From: Podarcis vaucheri
Taxonomy: Eukaryota
Assembly: GCA_965113315.1 (NCBI GenBank)
Contig: OZ220363.1
Reading direction: 5' to 3' (one strand)
DNA length: 64,000 bases
The stretch's first letter is position 1, and each line of letters starts with the position of its first letter. The position numbers are program-made. Positions 19,901 through 22,900 of this stretch are shown here, in pieces.

Positions 19901-22900
19901 CTTGATACTGATATTTTTAAGTCCCAGTAGGGAGAACAGAGGAGAGAAACCATTGATGGCTGCGTACAACATCAGGTTTCTAAAATCACACAAGTAATTT
20001 AAAAATAACAAAGCTTTGCCTGTAACTAAAAACAATTTGACAGAAAGGCTTTATAAATATGCCAGTTCTAAAGAAAGGCACCATTGCTCTGACATTATGC
20101 CTAGGACCTGAGTTTATTTCTCTGAAGTAGGCATCTACTGTTTTAAACATTTCTCAGATCACATAGTTATGTATAATAATAAAGTGCAGAAGAATCCCAT
20201 GGTTAAAAAATTGAGCCCCTTTGAGTTAAGCACATAGTTCAGTCATGCTCATTTAAATACTGTATATTGAAAATCTGGACAGAAAAGTTGTTGAGCCTTT
20301 TAAAAATTATTATTTTAAGTTTTGACCAAACTTTTTGAGTCTTTTTGCATGCAAAGTCTCAACAAACATCGCCGAAAACGACAATGCCAACAGGGGTTGC
20401 CATATGTTTGGATTTCCCCAGACATTTCAGCGATTCCTGCCCAGACTCAGTTTCCAACTGCTGATTGCCAGCTATGTACAGGAAATTCCAGACACATGGC
20501 AACCCTATTAAATTTGTCTGGATTATTCCTGATAAGTTTAAAAAATTACAAGCAGTGCAGAAAAGTATGTGAATGAAATTGTAGAAAATGCCCTGCAAGA
20601 GAGAAGTTTGCTGCAACTCTGGTCAGTGGTGGTTGTTGTTGTTTCTTTGTCTCAAGTATTAATATAATGACATGTCATTTCTACTTAATATACTAAACAG
20701 CTTCCTAGTTTGATTGCTTTGCACAGCTAATGTATGCTTTATTAGCAAGCTATGTCGATTGTTGTTGCATGGGCTGTTTTTCTGTATTATTATTTTTTAA
20801 AATCACAATTCACATTACTTCCTTTGCAAACTAACCTATAATTTCAGTTCCAAATATGTGGTGTATTCTGTTCTTTATAATGCATGTGTTTCCCTTTTAA
20901 TTATCTAAGAAAGAGGCTGGCTTTGTTTCAAACATGGGTACATTGTCATGCTTTCATGTCCCAATGCTCCCATGCGTCCAGTTTGTCCATCATGTGGAAT
21001 ATCAGTCCTGTCTTTAAGTTTTCATGCGAAGCTGAGGACAGTAACATGAAAGGTAAGCTAGGAAATAATGGGGTTCTGTTTAGAATTAGATGAAAGACTC
21101 CCTTACTATGTAAAGGTCCAGTTCATTTCTGCCCAGTCAAACAAGCACATTGGCCATTTTGGCTTATCTAGCCATGCATAGCACATCTCCACTGGGGGGA
21201 AAAGGTGGCGCATGGCTGGCTGTGGGGTTGTTGTTTTTTTCCTTTAGAAAAAATATTGACTGCTGAGATGTTGCTTACAAGCCAGTATTTCCCATGGAAT
21301 GATTTACCATTCTTGGTCTTCCACAATTGTTATCAAGTTAACATTGAAGTGTGAACTTTTAACTGAGACTCTGATATGGCTGTTTGTGTAAAATGAAGCC
21401 TTGTTAAGTATGGTTTGACTCAGTTCTAAGTGCACCTTCAACATTACACGATCGGACACAGTAGTGAACAATGATGTTTCCCAGCAGGTCCTTGCGGAGG
21501 ATCAATTCTGCCGTTTGCTACTTAGCTTTTTGTAACATACGTGCATATGTATGTGTGTATGATTCACATATACCGGTATGTGTAACTCTGTGCACATCGG
21601 GCCTATAGACCTGATTTCTCAACATTCTGCTTTGCGGACAGAGCACTATTGTAATTTTGAGTTCTTCCTGCAGATTGAGAAACATTGAAAGGGCAGAACT
21701 GATTCAGTACAAAATAAAAACACGTATGTATATTTTCACACATGGATTTAATGTAAATCTTGTAAATATTCAGTTTTGCTGTTTAATTCTTGACATTTCT
21801 CGCAAAAGTGCCTTGATCTTTAAGTTAGGTGTTGATGACAATTATTTACAGGTCACCCTGGCAACAAACGGCAAATCTGCAGACTTCAATGCTGTTGAAG
21901 AAGAACCTTGGAAACATGAGAAATAAGGAAGGAACAAACCAGGTCCACCTCTAATATGCCCCAGAAGTTGTCTTGTGGTAAAAGCTGGTATCAAGATTCA
22001 AGAAGATTTTTCACTGTCTTCATTTAGTATAAAAACTATTTGCTTATTTAATGCTCTTAACGGAAACTTAGAAACAGTCTCATAAAGTCATTGCTCCTTT
22101 AGCATCTTTGCCAAATAATTCATAACCATCTCTCTCAATTGTGTCACCACTTGAATGGATGTGGCTGAAGGACACTCTGTCAGTTCAAGAGATGTATTTT
22201 TGCTGGGCTTCCTCTGTTCAACTCAAGACGTAGAGAATGTAGATGCTGCAAAAGAGGAAAGATCAGAAAGGCCCAATGGCTGGTGAGACTCAGGCTAATA
22301 AGCATTAAGTATAATGTAAAAGGTGCAGTATTTTGCAATGCCTCTTCTCCTGCTGTAGATGTCAACCAGCACCTTAGTGCATATCAAATACAGTTAGCAC
22401 TGTGGACTGTAATATATGATCACTGTAAATGTTTTATATGTGCTTTATTAATACGTGGCATATGATATTCTCAGTTCCCTATTATTCATGCCATCCTCAC
22501 ATCGATGGTCATATCCCAGTTCTTTTAACCATCCAGAGCCCCATGCATGCCAGAACTATGTAGTCACCCAGGGGATATCATTTCTGTCATTTCCGTCACC
22601 CAATACTTGAAGATATAGGAAAAATGATTTGCAGTTTATAGTGGTGGGTGGGTGTGAATGCCTGTGTGCACGGTCCCCAAAAATGAATTAATCCCTGGGC
22701 AGCATGTATACATGGCTTGACCATGATTTTTTCTCCAATTGAGTTCAATGGACTGTATTGCCAGTATATAAATTTAGGTGTGGAATATGTAGTTTTCAGA
22801 GCTAATAAACCATCCCAGATTGTATGCCATTCATACTAGCAACTAGCACAATTCTGATTATCGATACAAGTAGAAACATAGACTGCAATATGTGGCTGTC

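What the first reader, a model, noticed from the sequence alone, without database searches (positions are those of the whole stretch)
20982..21017. GLT-1c-like terminal exon conserved in a reptile
A 36-bp cassette behind a CAG acceptor in intron 10 encodes FVHHVEYQSCL*, matching the mammalian retina-enriched GLT-1c tail (recalled as SLHYVEYQSWV; H-x-VEYQS identical). It keeps a class I PDZ ligand (S-C-L versus S-W-V). This implies that all three C-termini (a, b, c) predate the mammal-reptile split. It is too short for the ORF track and easily missed in annotation.
Basis: partly seen in the sequence, partly recalled or inferred. Interest (0 to 1): 0.65.

Follow-up and report, generated by a model that had tools for sequence, protein, structure and literature searches.

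The report
Lizard copy of GLT-1c exon
A tiny alternative exon in a lizard's glutamate-transporter gene (SLC1A2/EAAT2) encodes the same short tail as the mammalian retinal GLT-1c variant, and this tail proves far older than amniotes, so the finding is real but an ordinary new member of a known kind.

Summary
Window 20982-21017 reads FVHHVEYQSCL* directly behind a CAG acceptor. It lies in intron 10 of a squamate SLC1A2 gene, in phase with the exon 10 donor at 18130.

It is not chance. It is the best match to database c-type tails in the whole window on both strands: score 51, against a maximum of 39 in 500 shuffles of the intron.

Sixteen of 156 named EAAT2 proteins examined carry an 11-residue c-type tail:
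- seven frog species, a lungfish and a coelacanth (…EYQSCL)
- an opossum (SLHLVEYQSWV)
- three bird species

The lizard peptide matches frog, lungfish and coelacanth tails at 8-9 of 11 residues and the opossum tail at 6 of 11. The exon therefore predates the coelacanth-tetrapod split, not only the mammal-reptile split.

None of the 49 non-avian reptile cluster representatives carries the tail, so it appears unannotated there. Cluster members could not be inspected.

A strong donor 35 nt after the stop, plus a rattlesnake isoform, suggest a 71-nt cassette (20982-21052) rather than, or as well as, a terminal exon. Expression and PDZ binding are untested.

Verdict: a new member of a known kind, of low to moderate interest.

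The parts
17899..18130 (+). SLC1A2 exon 10 (coding ...[10 protein letters not shown]...NSVIIDECK). Its donor is AAG|GTACCT, phase 0.
   Evidence: The translation of 17900-18130 is 99% identical to Anolis carolinensis EAAT2 and 97% to several other squamates. tblastn of squamate EAAT2 proteins maps seven exons in the window.
18131..18169 (+). GLT-1b-type tail made by reading through the exon 10 donor: [12 protein letters not shown], with the stop TAG at 18167-18169.
   Evidence: It is identical to 12 of the 15 b-type tails among the database proteins.
20943..20981 (+). Conserved intron flank upstream of the c acceptor. It holds a pyrimidine-rich tract, a candidate branch point TTCAT at 20953-20957, and the acceptor AG at 20980-20981. 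No other AG occurs back to 20914.
   Evidence: 12 of 18 pyrimidines at -20..-3, a 66-nt AG-free zone, and a single YTNAY; in the exon's frame it reads LSCFHVPMLPCVQ. Across the 15 codons before the exon, 12 of 15 are identical to the in-frame extension of two Mycteria americana isoforms (P0052, P0058).
20982..21017 (+). Coding part of the GLT-1c-type exon: FVHHVEYQSCL plus the stop TAA (21015-21017).
   Evidence: It is the best match to c-type tails in the window, well above shuffles. It matches frog, lungfish and coelacanth tails at 8-9 of 11 residues, birds at 6-7 of 11, and opossum at 6 of 11.
21018..21052 (+). Untranslated 3' part of the exon, up to the donor AAG|GTAAGC (GT at 21053-21054). 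With the coding part it makes a 71-nt cassette.
   Evidence: The donor matches 8 of 9 positions of MAG|GTRAGT. Only 18 such sites occur on the + strand of the 64 kb, and this is the only one between 17 and 23 kb. In the frame that ends at this donor, the window reads SFHAKLRTVT*K. The 12-residue insert of Crotalus tigris isoform X1 is VLFLKLRTRTWK, 6 of 12 identical.
21713..21718 (+). AATAAA, the only canonical poly(A) signal between the c stop codon and exon 11. It is the possible end of a terminal-exon form.
21852..21926 (+). Coding part of exon 11, the GLT-1a tail VTLATNGKSADFNAVEEEPWKHEK plus the stop TAA. The acceptor is ttatttacag.
   Evidence: It is identical to the a-type tail of the Lacerta agilis, Gekko japonicus and Paroedura picta entries.

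Best explanation
This is the lizard orthologue of the alternative SLC1A2 exon that gives mammalian GLT-1c (EAAT2c).

The exon 10 donor at 18130 has three fates:
- It is read through, giving the b tail ...ETCI.
- It is spliced to 21852, giving the a tail.
- It is spliced to the CAG acceptor at 20981|20982. This replaces the 24-residue a tail with 11 residues, FVHHVEYQSCL, ending in an S-C-L carboxy terminus of the class I PDZ-ligand type.

Shown here: the sequence, its position and frame, its homology to annotated c-type tails from coelacanth to opossum, and splice-signal consensus on both sides.

Inferred: that the lizard actually splices it. The basis is that the open frame, the length and the invariant EYQSCL end are kept over more than 300 million years.

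Also inferred, at about even odds against a purely terminal exon: the exon is a 71-nt cassette (20982-21052) joined on to exon 11, which then serves as 3' UTR. The stop would lie 35 nt before the last junction. That is inside the roughly 50-55 nt limit of the textbook rule for nonsense-mediated decay, so the mRNA should be stable. Either architecture gives the same protein.

The function of the tail is inferred from the mammalian literature only: sorting or anchoring of the transporter through PDZ scaffolds at photoreceptor or other presynaptic membranes.
For: - Sequence and frame.
- Gene identity: the exon 10 translation is 99% identical to Anolis carolinensis EAAT2, and seven exons map by tblastn.
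- Not chance: score 51 against a shuffle maximum of 39, and the best site in the window on both strands.
- Homologues: 16 of 156 named EAAT2 proteins carry an 11-residue c-type tail directly after (D/E)CK. They come from seven frog species, Protopterus, Latimeria, Monodelphis and three bird species. The lizard matches them at 6-9 of 11 residues, and EYQSCL is invariant in all 10 frog, lungfish and coelacanth entries and in the lizard.
- Intron flank: 12 of 15 codons before the exon are identical between the lizard and stork extended isoforms.
- Splice signals.
- Cassette: the donor is rare (18 per 64 kb), and the rattlesnake X1 insert keeps the register KLRT.T.K up to it.
- Literature, passages seen only: mammalian EAAT2c is exons 1-10 plus a unique exon from intron 10, has a PDZ-binding end and is presynaptic in rat and human retina (PMC6033743). 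It is normally restricted to photoreceptors in the mammalian retina (PMC3872404). It makes up about 1% of EAAT2 protein (PMC8076567).
Against: - No transcript evidence for this species could be consulted.
- None of 49 non-avian reptile representatives (27 squamate, 20 turtle, 1 tuatara, 1 crocodilian) has a c-type tail: 37 are a-type, 11 b-type and 1 other.
- The two snake models that touch this region do not give the c peptide. The Crotalus tigris X1 insert skips the coding part, and Naja naja P0010 ends HHAERIWLHFIFQY.
- Between bird and lizard the intron flank (12 of 15) is better kept than the peptide (6 of 11). Part of the conservation may therefore be regulatory rather than coding.
- Birds lack the S at position -2, so the class I PDZ motif is not universal.
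- The review seen describes the mammalian exon as replacing exon 11, which fits a terminal exon better than a cassette.
- No c-type tail was seen in ray-finned fishes or sharks, but those searches rank by shared words and are weak evidence of absence.
Confidence: 0.8

Rival explanations
1. The block is a conserved non-coding element of intron 10, for example a splicing regulator or the relic of the c exon. It is no longer used as a coding exon in this lizard, and the open frame is a leftover.
For: - None of 49 non-avian reptile representatives carries a c tail.
- The flank upstream of the acceptor is better conserved between bird and lizard than the peptide: 12 of 15 against 6 of 11.
- Snake models use the region differently.
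- Five YCAY motifs lie within 70 nt across the acceptor, and two TGCATG motifs lie upstream. Both are weak hints of binding sites for splicing factors.
Against: An unused relic would not be expected to keep the length of 11 codons, the stop at the same place and 8-9 of 11 residues shared with frogs, lungfish and coelacanth. Both splice sites look good. Missing annotation is weak evidence, because the exon is tiny and the isoform is rare (about 1% of the protein in rat, PMC8076567). The YCAY count is reached at 34 loci in the window.
Confidence: 0.12
2. The exon is a true alternative terminal exon. Transcripts end at a poly(A) site inside intron 10, and the donor at 21052|21053 is not used.
For: A review states that mammalian EAAT2c has a unique eleventh exon from intron 10 and loses the original exon 11 (PMC6033743, passage). 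One canonical AATAAA lies at 21713, about 700 nt after the stop and before exon 11.
Against: The donor AAG|GTAAGC, 35 nt after the stop, is the only site matching at least 8 of 9 consensus positions between 17 and 23 kb. The Crotalus tigris X1 protein carries an in-frame insert between exon 10 and the a tail whose last eight residues follow the lizard sequence up to that donor. This implies the donor is spliced to exon 11 in a snake. The review's wording may describe the protein rather than the mRNA. The primary paper was not available.
Confidence: 0.4
3. The match is a chance open frame behind an AG in a long intron.
For: The peptide is only 11 residues long, and the intron holds thousands of such frames.
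Against: The score of 51 compares with a maximum of 39 in 500 shuffles and 27 for the next best site in the intron. It is the single best site in 64 kb on both strands. The start after AG and the stop fall at exactly the expected places. The flanks are also conserved with a bird and a snake.
Confidence: 0.01

Closest known systems
Mammalian GLT-1c / EAAT2c (Rauen et al. 2004; known here only from reviews and reference lists)
   Same: It sits in intron 10 of SLC1A2 and is spliced after ...ECK. It gives an 11-residue tail that replaces the a tail. The core H-x-V-E-Y-Q-S is shared with the opossum model P0071. It has a hydrophobic carboxy end of PDZ-ligand type.
   Different: The end is S-C-L rather than S-W-V, and the first two residues are F-V rather than S-L. 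The lizard form is the ancestral type, shared with frogs, lungfish and coelacanth, and the mammalian form looks derived. The lizard exon has a strong donor after the stop, so it may be a cassette. Expression in photoreceptors is unknown for the lizard.
Predicted EAAT2 isoforms with c-type tails in frogs, Protopterus annectens and Latimeria chalumnae (for example P0121, P0125, P0128, P0141)
   Same: The 11-residue tail ends ...[VIM]EYQSCL, and 8-9 of 11 residues are identical to the lizard. The junction after (D/E)CK is the same.
   Different: Those are annotated gene models. The lizard exon is not represented among the squamate entries seen. The first four residues vary (FYHR, SFHR, SFHH, SPRH, PLHH, against FVHH).
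Bird EAAT2 isoforms with c-type tails (Ciconia boyciana X3, Mycteria americana X3/X4/X6, Heliangelus exortis X3)
   Same: The position and the length of 11 residues are the same, as is the pattern F-[IV]-x-x-x-E-x-Q-x-C-L. The 45 nt before the acceptor are nearly the same as in the lizard when read in frame (12 of 15).
   Different: Birds have G for V at position 5, and L or H for S at position 9, so they have no S/T at -2. Two stork isoforms use an acceptor 45 nt further upstream. The lizard has TG, not AG, at that place.
GLT-1b / EAAT2b
   Same: It is an alternative C-terminus of the same gene made at the same exon 10 donor. It is short (12 residues) and ends in [ST]-C-[IL] (ETCI against QSCL). 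It is reported to bind PDZ proteins such as PSD-95 (PMC10867268, passage).
   Different: It is made by reading through the donor, not by splicing to a separate exon. There is no sequence similarity beyond the last three residues. Both tails are encoded in the window.

Membership tests
GLT-1c / EAAT2c alternative exon of SLC1A2 | The host gene is SLC1A2 (EAAT2), and the exon lies in intron 10, between exon 10 and the exon that encodes the a tail. | tested here: met
   Exons were mapped. Exon 10 is 99% identical to Anolis carolinensis EAAT2. The location in mammals comes from PMC6033743 (passage).
GLT-1c / EAAT2c alternative exon of SLC1A2 | The reading frame continues from the exon 10 donor and ends after a short tail of 11 residues. 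| tested here: met
   The donor is in phase 0 at 18130, the exon starts at 20982 in phase 0, and the stop comes after 11 codons. All 16 database c-type tails have the same 11 residues after the junction; two carry an extension in front.
GLT-1c / EAAT2c alternative exon of SLC1A2 | The peptide is homologous to known c-type tails. | tested here: met
   It matches opossum at 6 of 11 residues, birds at 6-7 of 11, and frogs, lungfish and coelacanth at 8-9 of 11. The score is far above shuffles. The rat and human peptides themselves were not available.
GLT-1c / EAAT2c alternative exon of SLC1A2 | Functional splice signals are present and the exon is actually included in mRNA. | not testable with these tools
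   The signals look adequate: a CAG acceptor, 12 of 18 pyrimidines, an AG-free zone and a candidate branch point, plus a strong donor. No transcript data or vertebrate genome collection is on hand.
GLT-1c / EAAT2c alternative exon of SLC1A2 | The carboxy-terminal PDZ ligand binds PDZ scaffolds. | tested here: inconclusive
   The end S-C-L fits the class I pattern S/T-x-hydrophobic (textbook definition). Binding was not tested. The tail is too short for the complex tool, and joining exons was excluded.
GLT-1c / EAAT2c alternative exon of SLC1A2 | Expression is enriched in the retina, in photoreceptors. | not testable with these tools
   This is known for rat and human from PMC3872404 (passages). 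There are no data for reptiles.

The most novel reading that the evidence does not exclude
The c-type terminus is the oldest-looking regulated tail of EAAT2. An 11-residue peptide ending -EYQSCL has been fixed since before the coelacanth-tetrapod split. This lizard keeps it almost unchanged, in a 71-nt cassette with conserved intron flanks that escapes nonsense-mediated decay. Mammals (-SWV) and birds (-LCL) carry derived versions. Some lineages may have lost it: a cobra model ends HHAERIWLHFIFQY, and a lemur model runs on past the stop. On this reading the exon would be systematically missing from non-avian reptile annotation. Its gains and losses could then be compared with photoreceptor biology across vertebrates.
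Probability: 0.35. Interest if true: 0.45.

Novelty: new member of a known kind. Interest (0 to 1): 0.3.

Why it matters
EAAT2 clears most synaptic glutamate, and its short alternative tails decide where the transporter is anchored.

Showing that the rare c tail is intact in a lizard, and nearly identical from coelacanth to frog to lizard, argues that it has a conserved job. It is not a mammalian oddity or splicing noise. It also identifies -EYQSCL as the ancestral motif to test for partners.

In practice, the result flags a micro-exon that reptile gene models seem to miss. It gives exact junctions to look for in retina RNA-seq: 18130->20982 and 21052->21852.

It does not reveal a new kind of mechanism.

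Tried and rejected
- Finding the published mammalian c peptide in papers. A full-text search for the five-residue core found two unrelated papers.
- Searches for GLT1c/GLT-1c found 65 papers, of which 30 were listed. I read passages in six.
- The search for EAAT2c found six papers. I read passages in three.
- These passages gave expression data and exon origin but no sequence, and no mention of non-mammals.
- 'eaat2c' in PMC2873418 is an old name for a teleost paralogue, not the splice form.
- A search for the salamander clone names sEAAT2A/sEAAT2B found nothing.
- Three primary papers are not held: Schneider 2014, Holmseth 2009 and Peacey 2009. Rauen 2004 was seen only in reference lists.
Whether a squamate c isoform is already deposited therefore stays unchecked.
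It was rewritten and re-run.
- Splicing-factor motifs: the YCAY cluster and the TGCATG sites are not significant on their own.
- No ray-finned fish or shark c tail appeared in the two profile searches. I do not read this as absence.
- Sixteen unnamed hits (Logan or JGI sources) were left unread. One of them (P0127) scored like a carrier of a c tail and stays unchecked.
Each exon was handled on its own.
- No vertebrate genome or read collection was available, so alignment of the orthologous intron and junction reads could not be done.
- Supplementary files were not consulted.

Full report
**What is there**

The window carries the 3' half of a squamate SLC1A2 (EAAT2/GLT-1) gene on the + strand. 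Stop-to-stop frames show seven coding exons between 7028 and 21926. tblastn of 14 sauropsid EAAT2 proteins maps the same exons (seven alignments for 13 of them, six for the tuatara entry). The closest is the cluster representative named Lacerta agilis, at 95.3% over 403 aligned residues. Exon 10 alone (17900-18130, searched on its own) is 99% identical to Anolis carolinensis EAAT2 and 97% to several other squamates. The species is therefore a lizard that I cannot name. Nothing in the window was taken for human, and it holds no N.

Exon 10 ends GAG TGC AAG|GTACCT at 18130, in phase 0. Reading through that donor gives [12 protein letters not shown], the GLT-1b tail (18131-18169). It is identical to 12 of the 15 b-type tails in the database set. 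Exon 11 starts at 21852 behind ttatttacag and encodes the GLT-1a tail VTLATNGKSADFNAVEEEPWKHEK*.

**The observation**

At 20982-21017 the sequence reads FVHHVEYQSCL*, directly behind CAG.

**Chance**

I scored every 11-residue stretch against the 13 c-type tails found in the database. This covered six frames, the 3721-nt intron and the whole window.
- The site is the best in both, with a score of 51. The next best is 27 in the intron and 37 in the window.
- Five hundred first-order Markov shuffles of the intron reached 39 at most (mean 27.5, sd 3.4).
- The match also starts right after an AG and stops at the same residue as the database tails.

**Relatives**

- The exon 10 search for longer proteins listed 120 of 575 hits.
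- Two profile searches used the last 45 residues of database proteins that carry c-type tails. They listed 120 of 200 hits and 120 of 315 hits.

In all, 172 proteins were returned. Sixteen were unnamed and left unread, so 156 named proteins were classified by what follows (D/E)CK:

| Tail class | Proteins |
|---|---|
| a-type | 109 |
| c-type | 16 |
| b-type | 15 |
| other | 7 |
| truncated | 7 |
| without the landmark | 2 |

The 16 c-type tails are:
- eight frog entries from seven species: FYHRVEYQSCL, YFHRVEYQSCL, SFHRVEYQSCL and SFHHIEYQSCL
- Protopterus annectens: SPRHVEYQSCL
- Latimeria chalumnae: PLHHMEYQSCL
- Monodelphis domestica: SLHLVEYQSWV
- Ciconia boyciana: FIQHGEFQLCL
- Mycteria americana: FIQRGEYQLCL, in three isoforms, two of them with a 15-residue extension in front
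- Heliangelus exortis: FVQHGESQHCL

The lizard peptide shares 8-9 of 11 residues with the frog, lungfish and coelacanth tails, 6-7 with the birds and 6 with the opossum. The end EYQSCL is invariant in the lizard and in all ten frog, lungfish and coelacanth entries, while the first four residues vary. This is the pattern expected of a peptide whose carboxy end is the functional part.

The exon is therefore older than the split between coelacanth and tetrapods. The lizard keeps the ancestral form, and the mammalian -SWV and avian -LCL ends look derived.

The other two tails are also old:
- The a tail is present in Polypterus and Erpetoichthys.
- The b tail is present in a caecilian, tuatara, turtles, snakes, a bird and mammals.

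No c-type tail from a ray-finned fish or a shark appeared, but these searches depend on shared words and are weak evidence of absence.

**Annotation in reptiles**

None of the 49 non-avian reptile representatives has a c-type tail. They comprise 27 squamates, 20 turtles, one tuatara and one crocodilian: 37 are a-type, 11 b-type and one other. A deposited squamate c isoform cannot be excluded.

**Anatomy of the exon** (unless noted)

- Acceptor: CAG, with 12 pyrimidines among the 18 bases at -20 to -3. By my own count on the sequence printed, the constitutive exon 11 acceptor has 10 of 18.
- There is no other AG for 66 nt upstream.
- A single branch-point-like TTCAT sits with its A 26 nt before the exon.
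- Read in the exon's frame, the 15 codons before the exon are GTLSCFHVPMLPCVQ. The extended stork isoforms have CILSCFHVPMLPCIQ, 12 of 15 identical, against 6 of 11 for the peptide itself. The intron flank is thus strongly conserved between bird and lizard, as is common for regulated alternative exons.
- The lizard has TG, not AG, where the stork's upstream acceptor would lie.

Thirty-five nucleotides after the stop lies AAG|GTAAGC (GT at 21053-21054), which matches 8 of 9 positions of the donor consensus. Only 18 such sites occur on this strand in 64 kb, and this is the only one between 17 and 23 kb.

Crotalus tigris isoform X1 carries a 12-residue insert, VLFLKLRTRTWK, between exon 10 and the a tail. 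In the frame that ends at the lizard donor, the window reads SFHAKLRTVT*K, that is KLRT.T.K in register. I infer that this donor is spliced to exon 11 in a snake, and that the lizard exon can be a 71-nt cassette (20982-21052). The stop would then lie 35 nt before the last exon junction, inside the roughly 50-55 nt limit of the textbook rule, so the mRNA would escape nonsense-mediated decay.

The alternative is a terminal exon that ends after the only canonical AATAAA before exon 11, at 21713. It is favoured by a review that says mammalian EAAT2c loses the original exon 11 (PMC6033743, passage). Both architectures give the same protein, and I put them at about even odds.

**Function**

From passages in reviews and papers, not from primary data:
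- Mammalian GLT-1c is normally confined to photoreceptors in the retina, and is induced in ganglion cells in glaucoma (PMC3872404).
- It makes up about 1% of EAAT2 protein (PMC8076567; PMC10867268).
- It has a PDZ-binding end (PMC6033743).

The lizard end S-C-L fits the class I pattern S/T-x-hydrophobic and resembles the b tail's T-C-I. This is a motif match only. Binding, expression and localisation in the lizard are untested.

**Against**

- No transcript data could be consulted.
- Reptile annotation lacks the isoform.
- The two snake models that touch this region do not encode the c peptide: the Crotalus insert, and the Naja naja tail HHAERIWLHFIFQY, which starts like the c exon from its third codon and then diverges.
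- Between bird and lizard the flank is better kept than the peptide.

A reading in which the block survives as a regulatory element or an unused relic therefore keeps some weight (about 0.1). The intact frame, length, stop and invariant end argue against it.

**Literature**

In the searches made, no passage I read discusses GLT-1c outside mammals:
- 65 papers found, 30 listed, passages read in six.
- two unrelated papers.
- none.
- one paper.
- six papers, passages read in three.

The primary papers were not held, and supplements were not consulted. I therefore do not claim that the point is unpublished. The conservation is in any case implicit in public gene models of frogs, birds, lungfish and coelacanth.

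**Verdict**

It is a new member of a known kind: the reptile copy of a known alternative exon. Useful details are the ancestral -EYQSCL motif, the conserved flanks and the probable cassette architecture. Interest is low to moderate.

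Noticed in passing
window 21017-21052 (compared with protein P0079, Crotalus tigris isoform X1): A rattlesnake EAAT2 isoform has a 12-residue in-frame insert (VLFLKLRTRTWK) between exon 10 and the a tail. It corresponds to the untranslated 3' part of the lizard c exon up to the same donor. In the lizard this frame holds a stop (SFHAKLRTVT*K).
   Followed up: partly
protein P0010 (Naja naja model), compared with window 20988-21060: The cobra model ends ...DECK+HHAERIWLHFIFQY. It begins like the c exon from its third codon (HH.E) and then diverges. This may be a frameshifted or decayed c exon in a snake. It cannot be tested without snake DNA.
   Followed up: no
protein P0134 (Prolemur simus; representative of a cluster of 295 members): The tail SLYKIDYPTNHLQTRWLISI starts like the mammalian c tail but has no stop after 11 residues. 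It may be a decayed c exon or a faulty model in a lemur.
   Followed up: no
window 21825-21851: The 27 nt before exon 11 read LGVDDNYLQ in frame, behind an AG at 21823-21824. A Chelonia mydas entry (P0039) includes the matching LDVNDNYLQ in front of its a tail. This is either an alternative upstream acceptor or an annotation artefact shared by the two.
   Followed up: partly
window 20935-21004; 20766 and 20881: Five YCAY motifs lie within 70 nt across the c acceptor. This is in the top 1.5% of 70-nt stretches, but 34 loci in the window reach it. Two TGCATG motifs lie within 220 nt upstream. Both are weak hints of regulation of the Nova or Rbfox type.
   Followed up: partly
window 18131-18169: The GLT-1b read-through tail [12 protein letters not shown] is intact. 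It is identical to the tail in monitor lizard, tuatara, snakes, turtles and a peafowl, so all three alternative tails are encoded in this window.
   Followed up: yes
window 21927 onwards: Many AATAAA and ATTAAA signals follow the exon 11 stop: 21 between 21927 and 34000. This would fit a long 3' UTR with several poly(A) sites. The rest of the window, to 64000, was not examined.
   Followed up: no
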